A stretch of DNA of 64,000 bases from Burkholderiales bacterium (GTDB lineage: Bacteria > Pseudomonadota > Gammaproteobacteria > Burkholderiales > SG8-41). Below are positions 6,917 to 54,093 of the stretch, piece by piece. Location of the stretch: positions 7,254 through 71,253 of the forward strand of contig DATLEF010000174.1 of assembly GCA_035525455.1 (NCBI GenBank), read 5' to 3'. The position numbers and the translations under genes were made by a program. Each line of letters begins with the position of its first letter. The first letter of the stretch is position 1. The notes beneath the pieces were generated by a model that did not search any database, was not told the DNA's origin, and saw only the letters and a list, made by a program, of their open reading frames with translations.

Positions 6917-8074
6917 ATGCCTCGTTATCCCGGACCCATACATTCGAAACTGCCTCACGTCGGCACGACGATTTTCACCGTCATGTCGCGGCTCGCTGCC
7001 GAGCACGGCGCGATCAATCTCTCGCAAGGCTTTCCAGATTTCGACTGTGCGCCCGAGCTGCGCGCCCTGGTTACGAAATATCTCAACGCCGGCCTCAATC
7101 AGTATCCGCCGATGGCCGGCATTGCGGGCCTGCGCGAAGCGATCGCCGCGAAAGCCGAAGCGCTCTACGGGGCCGTCTACGACCCCGAGCACGAAATCAC
7201 CGTCACGCCGGGCGCGACGTACGGAATCTACACCGCCGTCGCCGCGATGGTGCGTCCCGGCGACGAAGTCATACTGTTCGAGCCGGCGTACGACAGTTAC
7301 GCTCCTGCGGTCGAAGTGAGCGGCGGCACGCCCGTATATATCCAGCTCACCTATCCTGATTACGCGATTCCCTGGCAGGCCGTGCAGCAGGCGCTCACGC
7401 CGCGCACGCGCTTGATCATCCTCAACACGCCGAACAATCCCACGGCGAGTGTGCTCTCGGCCGAAGACCAGCGCATGCTCGAAGGTATGCTGCGCGACAC
7501 CAACGTCGTAGTCGTCAGCGACGAGGTTTACGAGCACATCGTGTTCGACGGGCACGTGCACCAGAGCGTCGCGCGCTTCCCCGGCCTTGCCGAACGCAGC
7601 TTCGTCGTGTCTTCGTTCGGCAAGACGTACCACGTGACCGGCTGGAAGATGGGCTACGCGCTGGCGCCGCGCGAGCTCATGACCGAGTTTCGTAAAGTGC
7701 ATCAGTTCAATGCGTTCGCTACGAACGGCCCTCTGCAGTACGCCTTCGCCGAATACATGCAGGACAAGGATGCCTACCTCGGCCTCGCGGAGTTCTACCA
7801 GCGTAAGCGTGATTACTTCCTGGAGGGCGTCAGCGGGTCGCGGTGGAAACCCCTGCGGTCACGCGGAACTTTTTTTCAGAATTTGTGCTACGACGCAATC
7901 AGCGACGAGCGCGATACCGATCTCGCAGTGCGCCTGATACGCGAGCACGGGATCGCCTCGATTCCGGTCTCGGTGTTTTATCGGGAAGCACCGGAGCACA
8001 AAGTGCTCCGGTTCTGTTTCGCGAAATCCGAAGCAACGCTCGCCAAAGGCACCGAAGTCCTCAGCCGCTTGTAA
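6917..8074 (+). CDS. PLP-dependent aminotransferase, class I/II (methionine aminotransferase YbdL-like)
   Basis: 385 aa. INLSQGFPDF, YPPMAGI, LNTPNNPT and SSFGKTYHVTGWKMGY (PLP-lysine region). Confidence 0.85.
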   Translation: MPRYPGPIHSKLPHVGTTIFTVMSRLAAEHGAINLSQGFPDFDCAPELRALVTKYLNAGLNQYPPMAGIAGLREAIAAKAEALYGAVYDPEHEITVTPGATYGIYTAVAAMVRPGDEVILFEPAYDSYAPAVEVSGGTPVYIQLTYPDYAIPWQAVQQALTPRTRLIILNTPNNPTASVLSAEDQRMLEGMLRDTNVVVVSDEVYEHIVFDGHVHQSVARFPGLAERSFVVSSFGKTYHVTGWKMGYALAPRELMTEFRKVHQFNAFATNGPLQYAFAEYMQDKDAYLGLAEFYQRKRDYFLEGVSGSRWKPLRSRGTFFQNLCYDAISDERDTDLAVRLIREHGIASIPVSVFYREAPEHKVLRFCFAKSEATLAKGTEVLSRL

Positions 8075-47434: not shown

Positions 47435-47524
47435 AACTTGCATGGCAGTGGCTCTCACGCTTTCGTGCGTACCGCGCCTGATAACATCGGTCGCGTCCAT
47501 CCGACGCCGGTGATTGACGTATCG

Positions 47525-48085
47525 ATGCAGCAGCCCCATCCCGCCTATACCCCCACCGCGATCGGCCTGCACTGGATCATCTTTTTTCTGATTGCGTGCG
47601 CGTGGCCGCTCGGTCAGTTCGTGTCCGGCCTGCCGTTTTCGCCGCAGAAGCTGCGCTTAATCGCATGGCACAAATGGATAGGCGTCACCGTTTTCATGCT
47701 GGCACTCCTGCGGCTCGCGTGGCGCCTTTATCGCCCGCCGCCACCGCTCCCGTTGAGCGATCTGCAGCGGCGCGCGGCAGGCGCCGTACATGCGTTGCTG
47801 TACGCGTTGATAATCCTGATCCCGATCAGCGGCTGGCTTTTCAGCTCGGCAGCGGGTGTGCCCACCGTCTACCTCGGCTTGATTCAATTGCCCGATCTTC
47901 TGCACAAAGACAAGGCGCTCGCGCAAACGCTCAACCAGGTACACGCGACGCTGAACTGGACGTTACTGGTGCTCGTATGCGGACATGCCGGGTTTGCGCT
48001 GAAGCATCACCTGGTCGATCGAGACGGCGTGCTCGTGCGCATGATCCCGCGACTCAAGGTCCGAAAATCAGAGAGTCCGTCATGA
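47525..48085 (+). CDS. cytochrome b561 family protein
   Basis: Trimmed to the ATG at 47525, giving 186 aa. TAIGLHWIIFFLI, HKWIGV and H...H heme-ligand spacing. ATGA overlap with yceI. Confidence 0.8.
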   Translation: MQQPHPAYTPTAIGLHWIIFFLIACAWPLGQFVSGLPFSPQKLRLIAWHKWIGVTVFMLALLRLAWRLYRPPPPLPLSDLQRRAAGAVHALLYALIILIPISGWLFSSAAGVPTVYLGLIQLPDLLHKDKALAQTLNQVHATLNWTLLVLVCGHAGFALKHHLVDRDGVLVRMIPRLKVRKSESPS

Positions 48086-48651
48086 AATGCAGCTCACTCG
48101 CCCTGATCGTTTTGTTTGGCTTCAATCCGCAAACAGTCCTGGCCCAGGCGATCGATTACGCGCGCAGCCAGATCACCGTCCAGTCGCGCCAGATGAATGT
48201 TCCTGTCGAAGCGCCGTTCACGAAATTCAACGCACAAATCGTGTTCGACCCGTTACGGCTGGAAGCATCCTCGGCACGCGTGGATATCGATCTTGCGAGC
48301 TTCGATATCGGCGATGCCGACGTGAACGAAAACGTCCGGGATCGCAACTGGTTCGACACGAAAAATCACCCGATTGCACGCTTTGTTTCCTCTTCGATAC
48401 GTTCTCTCGGAGGAGGCCGCTTTGAGGTGCGCGGACCGCTCACGATCAAAGGCAAGACACAGGAAGTCGCAGGACCGTTCACACTCAAGACGAATGGCGC
48501 CGACCGTGTTTTCGAAGGCGCTTTTGCAATACGCCGCCTGCAGTACAGCGTGGGCGACGGCGTGTGGCGCGATACGAGCGTCGTGGCCGACGAAGTGCAG
48601 GTCAAGTTCCGGCTATATCAGCTCGGGCAGAAGCCTGCGTCGAAGAAATGA
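48082..48651 (+). CDS. yceI: YceI-family periplasmic polyisoprenoid-binding protein
   Basis: ATG at 48082, giving 189 aa. Signal peptide MKCSSLALIVLFGFNPQTVLA/QA. YceI motifs (HPIARF, LTIKGKTQEV). The pairing with cytochrome b561 is classical. Confidence 0.85.
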   Translation: MKCSSLALIVLFGFNPQTVLAQAIDYARSQITVQSRQMNVPVEAPFTKFNAQIVFDPLRLEASSARVDIDLASFDIGDADVNENVRDRNWFDTKNHPIARFVSSSIRSLGGGRFEVRGPLTIKGKTQEVAGPFTLKTNGADRVFEGAFAIRRLQYSVGDGVWRDTSVVADEVQVKFRLYQLGQKPASKK

Positions 48652-48677: not shown

Positions 48678-50879
48678 TCAAGCGCTCCGGATGGTCATTC
48701 GGTTCAACGTCACATAATCGGTTTTGCCGCTGCCGAGCAGGGGCAGCGACGCTACTTTCACGATGCGCCGGGCGACCGCCAGATCCTGTGCGCCGATCTG
48801 GCGCGCAGCTTCCACGAGCATCAGTCGATCGAGACGCGGATCGGTCGTAAAGAGAACCGTGCTTTCACCCCTACCGCTGATCTGCTCGACGGTGGCGGCG
48901 TGCTTGTGCTCGGACGATGCCGCATAGGCAATGCGCTCTACGAGCTCGAGCGATACCATTTCACCGGCTATTTTCGCGAAGCGCTTCACCCGTCCGAGTA
49001 TCGTCAAGTAACCGTCCTCGTCCACTTCGACCACGTCGCCGGTGTTGTACCAGCCTGTTCCCACTTCGGAGCGTGGCGGATGCAACACGCCCGGCTGCTC
49101 GTAGAAATAGTACCCGGTCATCAGATGGGGACTGCGGACGTGAAGCGCGCCGCCGCGCGCGATGCCGGCCACGGGGACGAGCCGCCACTCGACGCGCGGG
49201 AGGAACCGCCCAACGCTGCCTTCACGGTACGCGAGCGGCGTGTTCAGCGCGATCGTGGGTCCGCACTCGGTCGCGCCATATCCCTCCATGATGCGCAGCC
49301 CGAACTTCGTCGCCCACAACCTCTCGACCTCCGGATTGAGCTTTTCTCCGCCGGACACGACAACCCGCACGCGATAGAAATCGTACTCGTGCGCCTGGCG
49401 CGCATAGTGGCCGAGAAAAGTGCTGGTACCGAAGACATACGTGCAGTCCCGGGTGTACGCGAATTCGGGTATGAGACGATAGTGGAGCGGCGTCGTGTAC
49501 AAAAAAAGCCGCGTGCCGCTGAGTATCGGCATCAGGGTGCAGGCCGTGAGGCCGTAGGTGTGATACATCGGCAGCGCATTGAGGTACTTGTCGTTCGCGC
49601 CAAAGTCGATCACCGCGCGCATCTGCGCCATGTTCGCAAGCATGGAATCGTGTGAAATCGCGACTCCTTTGGAACGTGCCTCCGATCCGGACGTGAACAG
49701 TATGACCGCGACCGCAGCGGGATCCTGCTGCGGAAAAGACGAGCGCGGACGCAGCATTGCGCGCAGGATCCATAGCTTGTCGCGCGTGCGCAAGCTCATC
49801 CGCAAGTCTTCGAGATACACGAGATTCACGGACTGCAGGGCCCGCACGCTGGCCTCGAGGCGCGCGACCTGCACGAAACGGCGCGAGGTGATGACTGTTC
49901 GCACGCCCGCGGCGACGCACGCAGCGCTCATTGCCTCAGGCCCGGCGCTATAGTTGAGCATTGCAGCGACGCGGCGCATCGCCGTGAGCCCGAAAACGAG
50001 CGCAACGGTGGTCGAAAGATTCGGCAGCATGACGCCGACAATTTCGCCTTCTGCGCTCACGCGCGAGGTCAATCGCGCAAGCGCAAGCGCGGTTTTCAGC
50101 AGTGTTCCGTACGTCTCCGGCTGCTGCCGCGCGTCTTCGATGATCGGCGTCGAACGGCCATGCAGGGTTGCGGCGTCCAGCAAGGCCTCGAACAATGTCT
50201 GTTTGCGTCTCGCGTCGACCATCATCCGCTGCAGGATGGACAGCATTTCGTCCGCAAGAGCGCGCCGCCGCTGGCGGCCGCTGAGACCCGGTTTCATGGT
50301 TATTTCGACCGGAGCCTGCACGTGCAGCGTGACGCGCGGGAACCACCGCTTCGGTGCCGCGCCCCCGACTGCGGACCCATGCGAATACAGCGTTCCGCCG
50401 ATGTGCACCGGGACGATACGCGCGTCGCTGCGCGCCGCGATGAGCCCCGCTGAGTCGTAGATTTTCATCACGGTGCCGGTAGTCGAAACGCGACCCTGAG
50501 GAAAGATCGCCACCGTCTCGCCTCGCTGCACTTGCCGAACCAGACGCTTGAGGGCGAGTGGCCGCGAGGGATCGAGCACTACGAAATTCAGCGTGCGCCC
50601 GAACAGTCGCACGAGGGGGTTTCGCACCGCTTCCGGCGTGACCACGACGGTAGTCACTCGCGTGAGGAACAAACCGAGCAGCACCCCGTCGAATAGCGAG
50701 TCGTGATTCGCGACCACGAGTGTCCGACCCGCACCCAAGGCCCCGAGGTCGCCCTCCACCCGCACCCGCAGCAGCGCGCGCAAGCTTGAGCGCAAAAGCG
50801 TGCGTATCACTTTAACAATCGCTTTTAAGTATCTGAGTTTGTGCAGATAGCTTTTACTTTGTCTCGTTTCTGCCGTCAA
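48678..50879 (-). CDS. aas: bifunctional 2-acylglycerophosphoethanolamine acyltransferase / acyl-ACP synthetase (Aas)
   Basis: 733 aa, collinear with E. coli Aas as I remember it. HX4D acyltransferase motif NHDSLFD. IFPQGRVSTTG. AMP-binding ILFTSGSEARSKGV. YGATECGP. C-terminal PLLGSGKTDY. The track start is a TTG at 50879. A GTG at 50810 gives an N-terminus that matches the E. coli protein's length before RVRV(E/T)GD. Confidence 0.85.
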   Translation of the reverse strand: MTAETRQSKSYLHKLRYLKAIVKVIRTLLRSSLRALLRVRVEGDLGALGAGRTLVVANHDSLFDGVLLGLFLTRVTTVVVTPEAVRNPLVRLFGRTLNFVVLDPSRPLALKRLVRQVQRGETVAIFPQGRVSTTGTVMKIYDSAGLIAARSDARIVPVHIGGTLYSHGSAVGGAAPKRWFPRVTLHVQAPVEITMKPGLSGRQRRRALADEMLSILQRMMVDARRKQTLFEALLDAATLHGRSTPIIEDARQQPETYGTLLKTALALARLTSRVSAEGEIVGVMLPNLSTTVALVFGLTAMRRVAAMLNYSAGPEAMSAACVAAGVRTVITSRRFVQVARLEASVRALQSVNLVYLEDLRMSLRTRDKLWILRAMLRPRSSFPQQDPAAVAVILFTSGSEARSKGVAISHDSMLANMAQMRAVIDFGANDKYLNALPMYHTYGLTACTLMPILSGTRLFLYTTPLHYRLIPEFAYTRDCTYVFGTSTFLGHYARQAHEYDFYRVRVVVSGGEKLNPEVERLWATKFGLRIMEGYGATECGPTIALNTPLAYREGSVGRFLPRVEWRLVPVAGIARGGALHVRSPHLMTGYYFYEQPGVLHPPRSEVGTGWYNTGDVVEVDEDGYLTILGRVKRFAKIAGEMVSLELVERIAYAASSEHKHAATVEQISGRGESTVLFTTDPRLDRLMLVEAARQIGAQDLAVARRIVKVASLPLLGSGKTDYVTLNRMTIRSA

Positions 50880-51098
50880 ACCCGCGTACTAGAGTGTGTT
50901 GGTAACCCGCCACACCCACAGTTTGTGCATACAAAGTCCTTTAGCGCGAAGGACCACCATAGGTAGTGTTAGAGGCTATTCCTCAAGAAGAAAAGAGAAA
51001 TCTATCAATTTGTTAGATTTGCTTTTTAAGCAGTGCTGTCCTTTAATCTTCAACGAATAGTGTGAACTTATTCCTATAAAAGCCCGGAGATTACTCAC

Positions 51099-52028
51099 AT
51101 GGAAATGCGCATCCCTGCCGCCCTGCTCGATCCGCGCCAGCAGCCCGCCAGCACCCCCATTCCACGCGGTATCGAATTCTCGATATCTCCACAGCTGACG
51201 GCTCACTTCGATAAAGAGCAGCGCGCGATGTGGTCTCACTGGAGCGCCGAGCCGAGGCCTTGTTTCAATCCGAGCCTGTTGGCGGACATCCGCTCGTACT
51301 ACGAATTTCTTTCGCAAACGGACGGTCACGTCATGTGCGACGGAGAAGAGCATCCGCTCGAATACGTCGTGCTGGCCTCGGGCATGCAGGGCGTGTTCAA
51401 TCTCGGCGGCGATCTGGACCTCTTCAAACAACTCATCGGTGCGCACGACCGGTCGGGGCTGCAGCGCTACGGGCGCGCCTGCATCGACGTGCTGTTTCGC
51501 AATTACATCGCACATGAGCTGCCCGGCGTGACCACCATATCGCTCGTTCAGGGTGAATGCCTTGGAGGGGGCTTCGAGGCAGCGCTTTCGTCGGACGTGA
51601 TCGTGGCGGAAAAAAGCTCGCGATTCGGCTTCCCCGAGATCCTCTTCAATCTTTTTCCCGGCATGGGCGCGTATTCATTCCTCGACCGCAAGGTCGGACA
51701 AAAGGCCGCGGAGGCGATCATCACCAGCGGAAAGATCTACACCGCCGAGGAAATGCACGCACTGGGTGTCGTCGACGTCGTCGCCGAGGACGGCCAGGGT
51801 GAGGCGGAAGTCGCGGCGCTCATCAAGAAGCGCGCACGCATGCGCAATGGACTTTCAGCGCTCGCCGCGACCCGCCGTCGCGTGCATTCGATCACATTCG
51901 AAGAATTGCTAGACGTGGTCCAGATCTGGGTCGACGCGGCGCTGCGAGTGAACTTGAGGGATCTCAAGCTGATGCAGCGGCTGGTGTCGCGCCAGAACGG
52001 CATGAACGATCCGCAGCAGATGCATTAG
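51099..52028 (+). CDS. rpfF: crotonase-superfamily DSF-family signal synthase (RpfF / DfsA-like)
   Basis: 309 aa. EPRPCFN, FNLGGDL, GGGFEAAL (Glu160) and GFPEILFNLFPGMGAYS (Glu180). The two catalytic Glu are 20 residues apart, as in characterised RpfF. C-terminal DLKLMQRLVSRQN. Confidence 0.8.
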   Translation: MEMRIPAALLDPRQQPASTPIPRGIEFSISPQLTAHFDKEQRAMWSHWSAEPRPCFNPSLLADIRSYYEFLSQTDGHVMCDGEEHPLEYVVLASGMQGVFNLGGDLDLFKQLIGAHDRSGLQRYGRACIDVLFRNYIAHELPGVTTISLVQGECLGGGFEAALSSDVIVAEKSSRFGFPEILFNLFPGMGAYSFLDRKVGQKAAEAIITSGKIYTAEEMHALGVVDVVAEDGQGEAEVAALIKKRARMRNGLSALAATRRRVHSITFEELLDVVQIWVDAALRVNLRDLKLMQRLVSRQNGMNDPQQMH

Positions 52029-52161
52029 AGGAGATCGGTCCGGACGCCAAATCCGCAGTCGCCCGCGCGCCGAGGCTTTGATACACTCCCGCGCGAATCA
52101 GGCCCTATATTATGAGAGGCCGCTGACGCTGCAGTAAGGGCTCCGCTTATCTACGCAAGAT

Positions 52162-54093
52162 ATGGAATACAGCATACAGGACGTGTCCGGTCTTCTGGGT
52201 ATACCGATCCAGAAGCTGCGCCGTTGGGACGAACAGGGCGTCCTGGTCGCTCTGCGGACGTCCGGCGGGCATCGCCGCTATTCGAAGGAGCTCATCGACC
52301 GGCTCGCCGCATCGGGTTTGAGCGCAAGCGCGGAAAAAACATCGCAGGAGCTCGCGACCGTGAAGCGCGCTCTCGCCGAGAAACGCCGCATCATTCAGCT
52401 GCTGCTCGAAAGCGAGAACCGCTACCGCGATCTGGTCGAGACCTCGCACGATCTCATCTGGGCCACCGACTCGCAGGGCCGTTTCACGTACCTCAATACC
52501 GCCGCGCAGGACATTTTCGGGCTCGCGCCCAAAGACCTCATAGGGCGCTGCTTCTTTAATTTCGAGGCCGGCGCGGCGCACATCGCCAACCGCCGTTTTC
52601 TCGCAACGCTGCGCAAGGGCGGAGAGGTCAAGAACTATGTGACGCACGTGTTGACCGCAGGCGGCGAAAACCGCTGGATCGGCATCAACGCCCGTCTCAC
52701 GCACGACGAAAATGGCGACGTGCTCGGCATACGCGGCACGGCCCGCGACATTACCGAGCAGCACCTCGCCACGCAGCGCATCGAACATCTCGCGCTTCAC
52801 GACCCGCTCACCGACCTCCCCAACCGTCACGCGCTGCAGATCCGCATCGAGCAGGCGCTCGGTGAGGACGCAGTCGGCGCACTCATCTTTTTCGACATCG
52901 ATCACTTCAAGTACGTCAACGACAACTTTGGTCATCGCTCCGGCGATCAGCTGATCGTGGGCGTTGGCAGCGTCTTGCGCGACATCACCCGCCCCTGCCA
53001 CGGCGAGCTTTACCGGCTGGGCGGGGATGAATTTGCAATCCATCTGCCGGACGCCCTGCGCAAGCACGCGAAGGAAACTGCCGAAAGCGCGCTCGACGCC
53101 GTCCGGCACTACCGTTTTCACGCGAGCGACCAGCGCATCGTGTCCAATCTCTCGGTCTCCGCCGGTATTGCGCTCTATCCGTTCCACGGCAGCGATGTGC
53201 CGGGCCTTTTCTCCAACGTCGACATTTCGATGTATCAGGCGAAAGAGCTGGGCCGCAATCGTTACGTGCTGTTCGATCAGGCATCCGATAACCTGCGCAG
53301 CACGCATAAGCGCATCCATTGGGCCAAGCGTCTGCGCGATGCGCTCGACGAGGACCGCATCACGCTTTTTGCGCAGCCGGTCGTGCGCTTGAGCGATCAG
53401 AAAACGGTGCATCACGAAGTCCTCGTGCGGCTGCGTGACGATGCGGGCGGCCTCATCATGCCGTCGACCTTCATCGAGCTGGCCGAGTCGCTCTCACTGA
53501 TCCAGGAAATCGATTATCAGGTGGTCGACAAGCTGCTCGCATTCATGCGCGAGCACGATCAGATCGGCCGCAAGGTGCGTTACTTCGTGAACCTGTCGCG
53601 GGTCTCGATTTCGGACCAACGCTGGATCAGGCGCTTCGTGTCGCTGCTGAAGACGAGCAGCATCGATCCGAGCCAGCTCGTTTTCGAGATCACGGAAACG
53701 GCGGCGATGTCCGAAATCGACGTGACGCTCACGTTCATCAACAAGCTGAAGGACATGGGTTGCCGTTTCGCTCTCGACGATTTCGGCGCCGGTTTCAGCT
53801 CCTTCTACTATCTCAAGCGCTTCGAAGTCGATTACCTCAAGATCGACGGGAGCTTCATCCGCGACCTGGCGACGGACGAAGGAAGCCGTCTATTCGTGCG
53901 CGCGTTGAACGACGTGGCGCAGGGGCTTTCGAAGCAGGTCGTCGCGGAATGGATCGAATCGCCGGAGGTGCTGAAGCTGCTCGTGCAAATGGGCGTGCAG
54001 TTCGGCCAGGGTTATCTCTTCCGCAAGCCCGTGCCCATCGAAGAGACGCTCGTGCTTCCCGCTTCTCGCGTATTGCAGGCTCGCATCGGCTGA
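52162..54093 (+). CDS. MerR/BldC-type HTH - PAS - GGDEF - EAL multidomain protein (RpfR/PdeR-like with fused DNA-binding domain)
   Basis: 643 aa. aa 1-48 read MEYSIQDVSGLLGIPIQKLRRWDEQGVLVALRTSGGHRRYSKELIDRL (HTH). PAS spans about aa 86-205. GGDEF is intact (nt 53020-53034). EAL domain motifs EVLVR, FEITE, DDFGAG, LKID, EWIE and GQGY are present. Confidence 0.85.
   Translation: MEYSIQDVSGLLGIPIQKLRRWDEQGVLVALRTSGGHRRYSKELIDRLAASGLSASAEKTSQELATVKRALAEKRRIIQLLLESENRYRDLVETSHDLIWATDSQGRFTYLNTAAQDIFGLAPKDLIGRCFFNFEAGAAHIANRRFLATLRKGGEVKNYVTHVLTAGGENRWIGINARLTHDENGDVLGIRGTARDITEQHLATQRIEHLALHDPLTDLPNRHALQIRIEQALGEDAVGALIFFDIDHFKYVNDNFGHRSGDQLIVGVGSVLRDITRPCHGELYRLGGDEFAIHLPDALRKHAKETAESALDAVRHYRFHASDQRIVSNLSVSAGIALYPFHGSDVPGLFSNVDISMYQAKELGRNRYVLFDQASDNLRSTHKRIHWAKRLRDALDEDRITLFAQPVVRLSDQKTVHHEVLVRLRDDAGGLIMPSTFIELAESLSLIQEIDYQVVDKLLAFMREHDQIGRKVRYFVNLSRVSISDQRWIRRFVSLLKTSSIDPSQLVFEITETAAMSEIDVTLTFINKLKDMGCRFALDDFGAGFSSFYYLKRFEVDYLKIDGSFIRDLATDEGSRLFVRALNDVAQGLSKQVVAEWIESPEVLKLLVQMGVQFGQGYLFRKPVPIEETLVLPASRVLQARIG

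What the first reader, a model, noticed from the sequence alone, without database searches (positions are those of the whole stretch)
52162..54093. DNA-binding HTH fused to an RpfR/PdeR-like PAS-GGDEF-EAL protein next to a DSF synthase: possible one-component fatty-acid-signal / c-di-GMP / transcription device
Seen: a single 643-aa ORF. Residues 1-48 carry a MerR/excisionase/BldC-type helix-turn-helix signature (IQDVSGLLGIPIQKLRRWDEQGVL...TSGGHRRYSKELIDRL). A short helical linker follows, then PAS (about aa 86-205), then GGDEF with an intact GGDEF (nt 53020-53034) and no RxxD I-site five residues upstream. The EAL domain keeps the catalytic-looking motifs (EVLVR, FEITE, DDFGAG, KID, EWIE, QGY). 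Established: in Burkholderia cenocepacia the PAS-GGDEF-EAL protein RpfR is encoded next to the DSF synthase RpfF(Bc). It binds cis-2-dodecenoic acid through PAS, has an N-terminal RpfF-interaction domain, and reaches promoters only via a separate regulator (GtrR). Its E. coli relative PdeR (YciR) acts through the MerR-like regulator MlrA. Inference: here a MerR-type DNA-binding module occupies the N-terminal position in cis. That would be a Rosetta-stone fusion of the sensor and the DNA-binding partner, collapsing signal sensing, c-di-GMP turnover and promoter binding into one polypeptide. Caveat seen in the sequence: an internal GTG at 52360, 9 nt after AGGAG (52346-52350), could also give an HTH-less isoform.
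Basis: partly seen in the sequence, partly recalled or inferred. Interest (0 to 1): 0.8.

Follow-up and report, generated by a model that had tools for sequence, protein, structure and literature searches.

The report
DNA-binding c-di-GMP enzyme beside DSF synthase
A soil betaproteobacterium encodes one protein that joins a MerR-type DNA-binding head to a PAS sensor and c-di-GMP-making and -breaking domains; it always sits beside a fatty-acid-signal (DSF-type) synthase gene whose promoter carries a conserved palindrome, so it is probably a self-contained signal-to-transcription switch that nobody has studied.

Summary
ORF 52162-54093 encodes a 643-aa MerR-HTH / long helix / PAS / GGDEF / EAL protein with all catalytic motifs intact and no I-site. 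The HTH is translated and constrained: Pfam scores are above threshold, dN/dS is 0.06, and most orthologues have an SD and start codon just upstream. The proposed internal start is not conserved (4 of 84 loci). The upstream crotonase falls in the same curated family (PRK08788) as B. cenocepacia RpfF. The protein is not an RpfR/PdeR orthologue. It has no FI domain, it keeps at most 1 of 5 BDSF-contact residues, its score is far below the family cut-off, and the genes lie in tandem rather than convergently. The family occurs in at least 243 GTDB species; the 80 examined are all uncultured Burkholderiales, always in the same module. New here is a dyad, AAATCTAWC-N5-GWTAGATTT (window 50998-51020), found upstream of the crotonase gene in 72 of 72 loci. 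It is the obvious candidate operator. A 14-species subclade has lost its catalytic residues but keeps the HTH and the dyad, so DNA binding looks like the core function. The best reading is a trigger-enzyme-type transcription factor (like PdeL) embedded in a DSF-type module (like RpfR). DNA binding, the PAS ligand and enzyme activity are all untested. This is a new variant of known kinds and is moderately interesting.

The parts
52162..54093 (+). Gene for the 643-aa HTH / helix / PAS / GGDEF / EAL protein
   Evidence: ORF; Pfam domains; identical protein already deposited from a Burkholderiales MAG
52168..52308 (+). MerR-type winged HTH (aa 3-49), with invariant QKLRRW and GGHRRY
   Evidence: Pfam MerR_1 39.9 and MerR 38.1 bits, both above gathering scores. 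PDB profile hits to TipA, a CarH-like protein and BldC. hhalign to MlrA at 94% probability. dN/dS 0.057. Motifs invariant in 84 of 84 orthologues.
52327..52443 (+). Predicted continuous helix aa 56-94; its conserved part (aa 63-90) is the most conserved segment of the protein. Probably a dimerisation or signal helix leading into the PAS.
   Evidence: AF2 secondary structure H56-94, pLDDT up to 92; 85% mean pairwise identity; dN/dS 0.007
52420..52752 (+). PAS sensor domain (aa 87-197); ligand unknown
   Evidence: Pfam PAS 60.1 bits. Foldseek finds generic PAS/LOV/heme/FAD PAS domains and RpfR's PAS is not in the top 50. hhalign to RpfR PAS has 6.9% probability.
52792..53262 (+). GGDEF domain (aa 211-367) with an intact GGDEF at 53020-53034, the D/K/ND substrate and metal residues, and no RxxD I-site
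   Evidence: Pfam 128 bits; motif table
53326..54030 (+). EAL domain (aa 389-623) with all catalytic motifs
   Evidence: Pfam 231 bits; motifs EVLVR, VNLS, EITE, DDFGAG, KID, EWIE, QGY
51099..52028 (+). RpfF(Bc)-family crotonase, the candidate DSF-family synthase, with the catalytic Glu pair E160 and E180
   Evidence: NCBIfam PRK08788 349.6 bits (cut-off 177). B. cenocepacia RpfF gives the same pattern, 400.5 and 184.3 bits. Top PDB hits are RpfF proteins at about 1e-50, against 1e-15 for ordinary hydratases. Glu positions.
50998..51020 (.). Conserved dyad AAATCTAtcaatttgtTAGATTT (family consensus AAATCTAWC-N5-GWTAGATTT); candidate operator
   Evidence: Unique in the 64-kb window at up to 3 mismatches, with 0 expected by chance. 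Upstream of the crotonase gene in 72 of 72 loci, 46 of them perfect, including loci without Aas. Never found elsewhere within 8 kb on either side.
51019..51047 (+). Putative crotonase promoter: TTGCTT, 17 nt, TTTAAT. The 'TWAATC' box keeps a fixed distance of 20 +/- 1 nt from the dyad in all loci.
   Evidence: Read from the aligned loci. It does NOT pass the consensus promoter scan, so the assignment is an inference.
52079..52087 (+). Extended -10-like element TGATACACT upstream of the HTH gene, probably its own promoter
   Evidence: T[GC]NTANA[AC]T present in 58 of 73 loci, at a median of 94 nt upstream of the start
48678..50879 (-). Divergent Aas-like gene (lysophospholipid acyltransferase plus acyl-ACP synthetase); a candidate RpfB-like fatty-acid salvage partner. 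The true start is probably 13-24 codons inside the listed ORF.
   Evidence: Pfam Acyltransferase plus AMP-binding. NCBIfam PRK08043 814 bits against a cut-off of 886. Conserved divergent position in nearly all loci.

Best explanation
The gene encodes a cytoplasmic one-component regulator of the trigger-enzyme type. A MerR-type winged HTH (the TipA/CarH/BldC/MlrA subgroup) is joined by a roughly 40-residue helix to one PAS sensor domain and a GGDEF-EAL pair with complete catalytic motifs.

It is the fixed partner of an RpfF(Bc)-family crotonase, a probable synthase of a cis-2-unsaturated fatty-acid signal. In most genomes the module also includes a divergent Aas-like acyl-ACP synthetase/acyltransferase, which would re-esterify the free fatty acids that an RpfF-type thioesterase releases.

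Most likely the protein dimerises through the long helix and PAS. It then binds the 23-bp dyad AAATCTAWC-N5-GWTAGATTT at the -35 edge of the crotonase promoter, in the shared Aas/crotonase control region. In that way it would set transcription of the signal-synthesis and salvage genes.

Its PAS domain would tune DNA binding and c-di-GMP turnover together, as would the c-di-GMP or GTP occupancy of the EAL and GGDEF domains. The PAS ligand is unknown; the crotonase product is the obvious candidate.

Shown: the domain architecture, selection on the HTH, family membership of the crotonase, the conserved synteny, and the existence and conservation of the dyad. Inferred: that this HTH binds that dyad, the sign of regulation, the PAS ligand, and which enzymatic activity dominates.
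For: HTH above Pfam thresholds. It is as conserved as the PAS (77% pairwise identity), with dN/dS 0.057. In 65 of 84 orthologues an SD plus start codon lies five codons upstream of the HTH.

The crotonase is in the same NCBIfam family as characterised RpfF(Bc) and keeps both catalytic Glu residues.

The Aas / crotonase / HTH-gene order is kept in essentially all 84 loci, down to 54% protein identity.

The dyad is upstream of the crotonase gene in 72 of 72 loci and nowhere else in the loci or the window. It persists where Aas is absent (L081, L082).

No other DNA-binding protein is encoded in the conserved module; the inserts seen in some loci are an IS200-like transposase or an unannotated ORF.

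A 14-species subclade has lost GGDEF and two catalytic EAL residues but keeps an invariant HTH, the dyad and the synteny.

The HTH gene has its own conserved extended -10-like element.

Precedents: PdeL binds a palindrome in its own promoter under c-di-GMP control (PMC5052742). RpfB counteracts the RpfF thioesterase (PMC4504480).
Against: Nothing here shows DNA binding, and the link between the dyad and this HTH is guilt by association within one syntenic lineage. Because the Nudix and nuo genes are syntenic too, adjacency alone is weak evidence.

The putative promoter fails a consensus scan, so the position of the dyad relative to the transcription start is uncertain.

The centre of the dyad fits the IHF consensus in 27 of 65 loci.

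The PAS shows no specific resemblance to RpfR's fatty-acid pocket.

In the window itself the family-typical start codon is TTA, and the ATG has no well-spaced SD.

The AF2 model of the HTH is unreliable and found no structural neighbours.

No cultured organism carrying the gene was found.
Confidence: 0.5

Rival explanations
1. The protein is a DNA-binding c-di-GMP enzyme, but the module is about membrane-lipid or fatty-acid homeostasis rather than cell-cell signalling. The crotonase would act mainly as an acyl-ACP thioesterase/dehydratase and Aas would recycle its products. The PAS would sense an unrelated cue such as redox state, oxygen or a metabolite.
For: The PAS resembles generic LOV, heme and FAD PAS domains and not RpfR's, and the BDSF-contact residues are not kept. 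The Aas chemistry is lipid salvage. RpfF enzymes are broad thioesterases (PMC4504480). The locus sits among respiratory genes: nuo, cytochrome b561 and cytochromes c.
Against: The crotonase is in the curated family of a proven signal synthase. In both known DSF core pathways a sensor linked to c-di-GMP is encoded next to rpfF (PMC4504480). No cofactor-binding signature was found in the PAS.
Confidence: 0.25
2. The dyad is the site of a different factor (IHF, a global fatty-acid regulator, or simply back-to-back promoter elements). The HTH protein would then bind elsewhere in the genome, and its adjacency to the crotonase would reflect inherited synteny only.
For: The centre matches WATCAANNNNTTR in 27 of 65 loci. 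The reverse strand contains TTGATA, a possible -35 for the Aas gene. The whole neighbourhood, including nuo, is syntenic. No second copy of the dyad, for example upstream of the HTH gene itself, was found.
Against: The symmetric arms are the conserved part, and the IHF-like centre is lost in the divergent subclade while the arms persist. The dyad stays with the crotonase/HTH pair when Aas is replaced. No other regulator is encoded in the module.
Confidence: 0.2
3. The N-terminal HTH is not a DNA-binding module in this protein. It could be vestigial or a protein-interaction surface, or, in this particular genome, poorly translated or untranslated, leaving an ordinary PAS-GGDEF-EAL enzyme.
For: In the window the family-typical start is TTA and the ATG at 52162 lacks a well-spaced SD. 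An SD-like AGGAG precedes GTG 52360. The HTH covers only profile positions 1-47 of 69 in MerR_1.
Against: dN/dS is 0.057 between the window and its 10 closest relatives, including those with the same ATG start. The recognition helix and wing are invariant in 84 of 84 orthologues. The internal GTG is conserved in only 4 of 84. Short MerR-type HTHs such as BldC are bona fide DNA binders, and BldC is a PDB hit.
Confidence: 0.05

Closest known systems
RpfR (B. cenocepacia, Cronobacter) and PdeR (E. coli): FI-PAS-GGDEF-EAL receptors of BDSF
   Same: A PAS-GGDEF-EAL core with intact motifs. It is encoded next to a PRK08788-family RpfF crotonase and links a fatty-acid-signal locus to c-di-GMP. RpfR also affects transcription and is a c-di-GMP sensor (PMC12838280).
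   Different: There is no FI (RpfF-interaction) domain; a MerR-type HTH occupies the N-terminus. It is 31% identical to PdeR and far below the family cut-off. The BDSF-contact residues are not conserved. The genes are in tandem rather than convergent. RpfR needs GtrR to reach DNA, whereas here the DNA-binding domain is in cis.
PdeL (YahA) of E. coli: LuxR-HTH plus EAL 'trigger phosphodiesterase'
   Same: An HTH and an active EAL domain in one polypeptide. PdeL binds an imperfect palindrome in a promoter, and its transcriptional activity depends on c-di-GMP (PMC5052742). This is the best mechanistic analogue.
   Different: PdeL has a LuxR-type rather than a MerR-type HTH, and it has no PAS and no GGDEF. 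It autoregulates its own gene, whereas here the candidate operator is at the neighbouring synthase gene. It has no link to DSF.
VieA of Vibrio cholerae: REC-EAL-HTH
   Same: A c-di-GMP phosphodiesterase carrying an HTH domain (PMC4352251).
   Different: The HTH is C-terminal and the input is a phosphorylated receiver. DNA binding has never been shown.
MlrA, TipA, CarH/LitR and BldC: MerR-type HTHs with an 'RT.GGHR(R/L)(Y/F)' wing
   Same: The same HTH subtype. One profile gives 29.3 bits for TipA, 28.1 for a CarH-like protein, 25 for BldC and 22 for MlrA. hhalign to MlrA gives 94% probability. MlrA is the transcription factor that PdeR controls in trans.
   Different: Those proteins carry their own C-terminal effector domains, or none in the case of BldC. 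None carries c-di-GMP enzymes. The HTH is not specifically closest to MlrA.
DsfR (BCAM2136): a BDSF-binding acyl-CoA ligase that binds promoters directly
   Same: A one-component route from a DSF-family signal to promoters, including the promoter of the synthase gene rpfF(Bc) (PMC12838280).
   Different: It is an entirely different protein, an adenylate-forming enzyme with a leucine zipper, and it has no c-di-GMP domains.

Membership tests
RpfR/PdeR (FI-PAS-GGDEF-EAL BDSF receptor) | N-terminal RpfF-interaction (FI) domain, residues 1-95 | tested here: not met
   The N-terminus is a MerR-type HTH. A PDB search with aa 1-214 at E<=1 finds no RpfR FI chain (6dga/6dgn), whereas PdeR finds it at 2.7e-19.
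RpfR/PdeR (FI-PAS-GGDEF-EAL BDSF receptor) | PAS pocket residues that bind BDSF (S169, N172, Y183, R187, N202 in RpfR-Ct) | tested here: not met
   BLASTP gives A139, A142, K157, T161 and N176 at these positions; hhalign gives N143 and F146 for the first two. At most N202 is kept. The alignments are weak (hhalign probability 6.9%).
RpfR/PdeR (FI-PAS-GGDEF-EAL BDSF receptor) | Score above the curated NCBIfam cut-off for PdeR (PRK10060) | tested here: not met
   295.9 bits against a cut-off of 782
RpfR/PdeR (FI-PAS-GGDEF-EAL BDSF receptor) | Encoded next to rpfF | tested here: met
   Adjacent in all loci with flank, but co-directional rather than convergent as in Burkholderia (PMC6361424)
MerR-family DNA-binding domain | N-terminal winged HTH matching Pfam MerR / MerR_1 above the gathering score | tested here: met
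   38.1 bits (28.2) and 39.9 bits (21.6). Only profile positions 1-47 of 69 are matched, so this is a short form like BldC.
MerR-family DNA-binding domain | Long dimerisation helix after the HTH, followed by a C-terminal effector-binding domain | tested here: inconclusive
   AF2 predicts one helix at aa 56-94, but only a monomer was modelled. What follows is PAS-GGDEF-EAL, not a MerR effector domain.
MerR-family DNA-binding domain | Operator inside an over-long (19-20 bp) -35/-10 spacer | tested here: not met
   The candidate dyad lies upstream of and overlapping a putative -35, with a 17-nt spacer. The promoter assignment itself is unconfirmed.
RpfF / DSF-family synthase (neighbouring gene) | Crotonase fold, the two catalytic Glu residues, and membership of the curated family that holds a characterised synthase | tested here: met
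   ECH_1. E160 and E180 align with GGGFE and FPEI of 5fus. PRK08788 scores 349.6 bits; RpfF(Bc) scores 400.5 on the same model.
RpfF / DSF-family synthase (neighbouring gene) | Xanthomonas-type RpfF equivalog (NF053515) | tested here: not met
   205.9 bits against 550. RpfF(Bc) also fails this model with 184.3 bits.
RpfF / DSF-family synthase (neighbouring gene) | Produces a cis-2-unsaturated fatty acid from 3-hydroxyacyl-ACP | not testable with these tools
   Needs expression plus a bioassay or GC-MS
Trigger phosphodiesterase / transcription factor (PdeL type) | HTH and a catalytically competent EAL in one polypeptide | tested here: met
   The HTH is MerR-type rather than LuxR-type.
Trigger phosphodiesterase / transcription factor (PdeL type) | Binds promoter DNA, with output modulated by c-di-GMP binding and hydrolysis | not testable with these tools
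   Only a candidate operator was found. Indirect support: the catalytically dead subclade keeps the HTH.
Active diguanylate cyclase (GGDEF) | GG(D/E)EF plus the substrate and metal residues; an RxxD I-site for product inhibition | tested here: inconclusive
   GGDEF and DxDxFKxxND are intact in the window and in 70 of 84 orthologues. The I-site is absent. Activity is untested; in the closest solved relative, PA0861, the architecture is the same.

The most novel reading that the evidence does not exclude
One polypeptide closes a complete quorum-sensing loop. Its PAS domain binds the cis-2 fatty acid made by the adjacent RpfF-family enzyme. Ligand binding switches its EAL and GGDEF activities and also its occupancy of the dyad at the synthase/Aas promoter. 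Signal sensing, second-messenger turnover and autoinduction of the synthase are then carried out by a single protein, without RpfC/RpfG, GtrR or MlrA-like partners. A sister subclade has turned the same scaffold into an enzymatically dead c-di-GMP-receptor transcription factor. This would be a third, one-component core pathway of DSF signalling, widespread in uncultured soil and groundwater Burkholderiales.
Probability: 0.25. Interest if true: 0.75.

Novelty: new variant of a known kind. Interest (0 to 1): 0.55.

Why it matters
Two core DSF pathways are known, RpfC/RpfG and RpfR. Both end in c-di-GMP turnover and need separate factors to reach promoters. Separately, the trigger-enzyme concept (PdeR, PdeL) rests on two E. 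coli proteins.

This family would join the two ideas in a single protein, and a specific, conserved 23-bp candidate operator is in hand. That makes the question of how a c-di-GMP enzyme couples catalysis to DNA binding directly testable by EMSA, footprinting and reporter assays.

The naturally inactivated subclade offers a ready-made comparison between the enzyme form and the receptor form of the same scaffold.

The family also indicates DSF-type signalling in a large uncultured Burkholderiales lineage from soil and groundwater, where nothing is known about cell-cell signalling.

Tried and rejected
1. The exhaustive representative search with aa 1-210 was swamped by giant multi-PAS proteins. 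It showed only that few 50%-identity clusters share the N-terminus, so it was a poor use of the single job.

2. The AF2 model of aa 1-95 and a Foldseek search of the PDB gave no hit better than E = 0.6. The shallow alignment mis-models helix 2 as a strand, so the HTH could not be classified structurally.

3. Foldseek of the aa 1-214 model returned only generic PAS neighbours, which gives no clue to the ligand.

4. tblastn against 72,556 plasmids and chromids found no N-terminal HTH-PAS fusion. The two hits that seemed to start at residue 2 or 8 (Deinococcus, Mycolicibacterium) lie inside longer proteins.

5. Rfam on 50600-52400 found nothing. The roughly 70-nt leader of the HTH gene is not structured (z = -0.09), and its consensus fold across 13 loci is negligible.

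6. The consensus promoter and terminator scan found no sigma-70 match, so the promoter assignments remain inferences. It also found no terminator on the + strand between the crotonase and the HTH gene.

7. An IHF site at the centre of the dyad was considered. The consensus is present in only 27 of 65 loci and is lost where the arms persist.

8. A LOV-like cysteine (GRCFF) was considered and rejected, because C130 is not invariant across cluster representatives.

9. Extra dyad copies, which would indicate a regulon, were not found in the window or within 8 kb either side in 84 loci. Whole genomes could not be scanned.

10. Literature searches for this architecture found no description. 'MerR' hits in the Burkholderia papers were the author name Merritt.
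Full report

Yes. ORF 52162..54093 (+) encodes 643 aa.

Pfam finds MerR_1 at aa 3-49 (39.9 bits, gathering score 21.6) and MerR (38.1 bits, 28.2). HTH_17 scores 25.8 bits, just under its threshold of 27. Pfam also finds PAS (87-197), GGDEF (211-367, 128 bits) and EAL (389-623, 231 bits).

GGDEF is at nt 53020-53034. There is no RxxD five residues upstream. The EAL motifs (EVLVR, VNLS, EITE, DDFGAG, KID, EWIE, QGY) are complete.

The identical protein is already in NCBI from a Burkholderiales MAG, annotated only as an 'EAL domain-containing protein'. More than 120 clusters at 75% identity or above carry the same Pfam set.

**2. Is the HTH part of the protein?**

Four lines of evidence say yes.

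- Across 84 orthologous loci the HTH is as conserved as the PAS (77% against 76% mean pairwise identity) and more conserved than GGDEF or EAL (68% and 67%). The helix that follows (aa 63-90) is the most conserved segment, at 85%.
- dN/dS against the ten closest loci is 0.057 for the HTH and 0.007 for the helix, compared with 0.079 for PAS and 0.125 for GGDEF.
- In 65 of 84 loci a GTG, TTG or ATG preceded by AGGGGG or GGGAGG lies five codons upstream of the window's M1.
- The codon at 52360 is a start codon in only 4 of 84 loci (ATC in 43, GTC in 29). The HTH-less isoform is therefore not a conserved feature.

One caveat applies to this window. The family-typical start is TTA here and a stop lies nine codons upstream, so ATG 52162 is the only start that includes the HTH, and it has no well-spaced SD. 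The closest relatives (L001-L003, L013) share this arrangement and still show purifying selection.

**3. What kind of HTH is it?**

A profile of the N-terminus hits the HTHs of TipA (29.3 bits), a CarH-like B12 protein (28.1), BldC (25) and TtCarH (22.5) in the PDB. The same profile scores E. coli MlrA at 22.0 bits. hhalign to MlrA gives 94% probability and 38% identity over 50 columns, with the same 'RT.GGHR' wing.

So the HTH belongs to the MerR subgroup that contains MlrA, the factor PdeR controls in trans (PMC5052742). It is not specifically closest to MlrA, and it lacks any MerR-type C-terminal domain.

AF2 (pLDDT 74) predicts helix 1, helix 2, a beta-hairpin wing, helix 3, one continuous helix at aa 56-94, and then a canonical PAS. 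The HTH-only model found no structural neighbours, so the classification rests on sequence profiles.

**4. Is it RpfR/PdeR-like?**

Only in domain order.

- No equivalog model is passed. PdeR (PRK10060) scores 295.9 bits against a cut-off of 782, and DibA scores 322.7 against 980.
- The best solved relative is PA0861 (2e-83). Identity to PdeR is 31%.
- RpfR's FI domain is absent.
- Of the BDSF-contacting residues S169, N172, Y183, R187 and N202 (PMC6361424), at most N202 is retained.
- hhalign to the RpfR PAS construct gives 6.9% probability.
- RpfR's PAS is not among the top 50 Foldseek matches, which are LOV, DosP, FixL, NifL and Rv1364c PAS domains.
- rpfF and rpfR are convergent in Burkholderia (PMC6361424), whereas here the genes are in tandem.

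The PAS ligand is therefore unknown.

**5. The neighbours**

The crotonase (51099..52028) groups with the solved RpfF proteins at about 1e-50, against 1e-15 for ordinary hydratases. It keeps both catalytic Glu residues, E160 and E180.

It passes NCBIfam PRK08788 (349.6 bits, cut-off 177) and fails the Xanthomonas-type RpfF model (205.9 bits, cut-off 550). The characterised BDSF synthase RpfF(Bc) behaves the same way, with 400.5 and 184.3 bits. So the crotonase is a member of the RpfF(Bc) family.

The divergent gene (48678..50879) is Aas-like, with acyltransferase and acyl-ACP synthetase domains. In xanthomonads the ligase RpfB, encoded beside rpfF, counteracts RpfF's thioesterase by re-activating free fatty acids for phospholipid synthesis. 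An acyl-ACP synthetase reverses that reaction in vitro (PMC4504480). The Aas-like enzyme would do the same thing. By inference it is a functional analogue of RpfB.

**6. Distribution and synteny**

A scan of GTDB species representatives with the N-terminal alignment found relatives in 243 species. The best 80 are all uncultured Burkholderiales or Betaproteobacteria MAGs from soil and groundwater; a few carry evidently wrong taxon labels.

In essentially every locus with enough flank the order is Aas (-), crotonase (+), HTH gene (+), Nudix (-), nuoN (-). This holds down to 54% identity of the HTH protein.

Because the whole neighbourhood is syntenic, adjacency alone is weak evidence of functional linkage. 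In L081 and L082, however, Aas is replaced by an ABC-transporter operon while the crotonase/HTH pair stays together. Some loci carry an IS200-like transposase or an unannotated ORF between the two genes.

No counterpart was found on plasmids or chromids of cultured bacteria. No paper describing the architecture was found.

**7. A candidate operator (new in this analysis)**

The Aas/crotonase intergenic region is AT-rich, at 46% GC against 62% for the next intergenic region. It contains a dyad, AAATCTAtcaatttgtTAGATTT, at window 50998-51020. The family consensus is AAATCTAWC-N5-GWTAGATTT.

- The dyad is unique in the 64-kb window even at 3 mismatches, with 0 expected by chance.
- It lies upstream of the crotonase gene in 72 of 72 loci, 46 of them perfect.
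- It never occurs elsewhere in the 84 loci.
- Its right arm overlaps a possible -35 (TTGCTT). Seventeen nt downstream lies a 'TWAATC' box whose distance from the dyad is fixed at 20 +/- 1 nt.

This promoter does not pass a consensus scan, so the dyad's position at roughly -45 is an inference. On the other strand, TTGATA inside the dyad could serve the Aas promoter. The centre fits the IHF consensus in only 27 of 65 loci and decays in the divergent subclade, while the arms persist.

The HTH gene itself has a conserved extended -10-like element, TGnTAnACT, in 58 of 73 loci (window 52079-52087) at a median of 94 nt upstream of its start. Its leader is unstructured and has no Rfam match.

The HTH protein is the only DNA-binding protein encoded in the conserved module. 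It is therefore the prime candidate to bind the dyad. That assignment is an inference and has not been shown.

**8. A natural experiment**

Fourteen species, with proteins 54-62% identical to the window's, have GEDQF instead of GGDEF. In the EAL domain the general-base Glu of E-x-x-E is K or R, and the Asp of K-x-D is N, H, S or G. Yet QKLRRW and GGHRRY are invariant, and the dyad and synteny are kept.

DNA binding thus looks like the conserved core function. In that subclade the GGDEF-EAL part could plausibly serve as a c-di-GMP-sensing regulatory module, as in trigger enzymes and degenerate receptors (PMC5052742). This is an inference from motifs alone. The window's own protein keeps every catalytic motif.

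**9. Most likely mechanism and rivals**

The best reading (confidence about 0.5) is a dimeric, MerR-HTH-bearing, trigger-type c-di-GMP enzyme that binds the dyad. It would control the RpfF-family synthase and Aas genes, with PAS ligand and nucleotide occupancy tuning DNA binding and catalysis together.

The rivals are:

- The same protein acting in a lipid-homeostasis module, with an unrelated PAS signal (0.25).
- The dyad belongs to another factor and the HTH protein acts elsewhere (0.2).
- The HTH is non-functional (0.05).

**10. Comparison and verdict**

The protein works most like PdeL, an HTH plus EAL that binds a promoter palindrome in a c-di-GMP-dependent way. It sits in a genomic setting like RpfR's. 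It is a member of neither family. VieA and DsfR are further precedents for an EAL plus HTH protein and for a one-component route from DSF to promoters (PMC4352251, PMC12838280).

It is an uncharacterised, widespread variant that merges two known ideas, so it is not categorically new. Interest is moderate (0.55). Domain fusions in c-di-GMP proteins are common and precedents for DNA binding exist. On the other hand, the conserved operator candidate and the inactivated subclade make a clear, testable system.

Noticed in passing
window 52135-52164: The family-typical start codon (GTG/TTG/ATG with a strong SD, five codons upstream of M1) is TTA in this window, and a TAA stop lies nine codons upstream. 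ATG 52162 has no well-spaced SD; the nearest SD-like AAGGG is about 22 nt away. The closest relatives (L001-L003, L013) share this arrangement.
   Followed up: partly
L064, L066, L067, L070, L071, L073-L080, L083 (HTH gene starts near 8001 in loci with full flank): A 14-species subclade has GEDQF instead of GGDEF. Its EAL has lost the general-base Glu (KGVE/RGVE) and, in most members, the Asp of KxD. The HTH, the dyad and the synteny are intact. These are probably enzymatically dead c-di-GMP-sensing transcription factors.
   Followed up: partly
L029 3714-4522; similarly L034, L035, L036, L037, L042: An IS200-like (Y1_Tnp, REP-associated type) transposase ORF is inserted between the crotonase and the HTH gene. 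In L025 and L043 a 400-550-aa ORF with no Pfam hit in its first 120 residues sits at the same place.
   Followed up: partly
L021, L024, L028, L045: The crotonase (59-62% identical to the window's) and Aas (49-51%) are much more diverged than the HTH protein (74-78%) in the same loci. The synthase/salvage pair either evolves faster or was replaced.
   Followed up: no
window 51042-51048 and the equivalent position in all loci: A conserved 'TWAATC' box lies exactly 20 +/- 1 nt after the dyad. As a -10 element it lacks the canonical A at position 2. Alternatively its AATC core could be a third half-site.
   Followed up: no
L007, L023, L038, L040, L044, L046-L048, L052, L054, L063, L066, L067, L073, L075: MAG records labelled 'uncultured Streptomycetaceae', 'Streptomyces sp.', 'Gemmatimonadaceae', 'Bordetella sp.' or 'Bordetella parapertussis' carry this typically betaproteobacterial locus with nuo synteny. 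These are probably taxonomic mislabels or binning errors in the source records.
   Followed up: no
window 47438-48651: Between the ArfB-like RF-1-domain gene and Aas the window has cytochrome b561 (47438-48085) and a YceI-like gene (about 48088-48651). Relatives L001 and L003 have cytochrome c and cytochrome c' genes there instead. This is a variable slot next to the conserved module.
   Followed up: partly
window 52147-53415 (- strand): A 422-aa ORF runs antisense across the 5' half of the HTH gene. It has the amino-acid bias typical of spurious antisense ORFs in GC-rich DNA and was not treated as a gene.
   Followed up: no
L081 and L082, upstream of the crotonase gene: The Aas gene is absent and an ABC-transporter operon (periplasmic binding protein, permease, ATPase) ends just upstream. 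The dyad and the crotonase/HTH pair are retained.
   Followed up: partly
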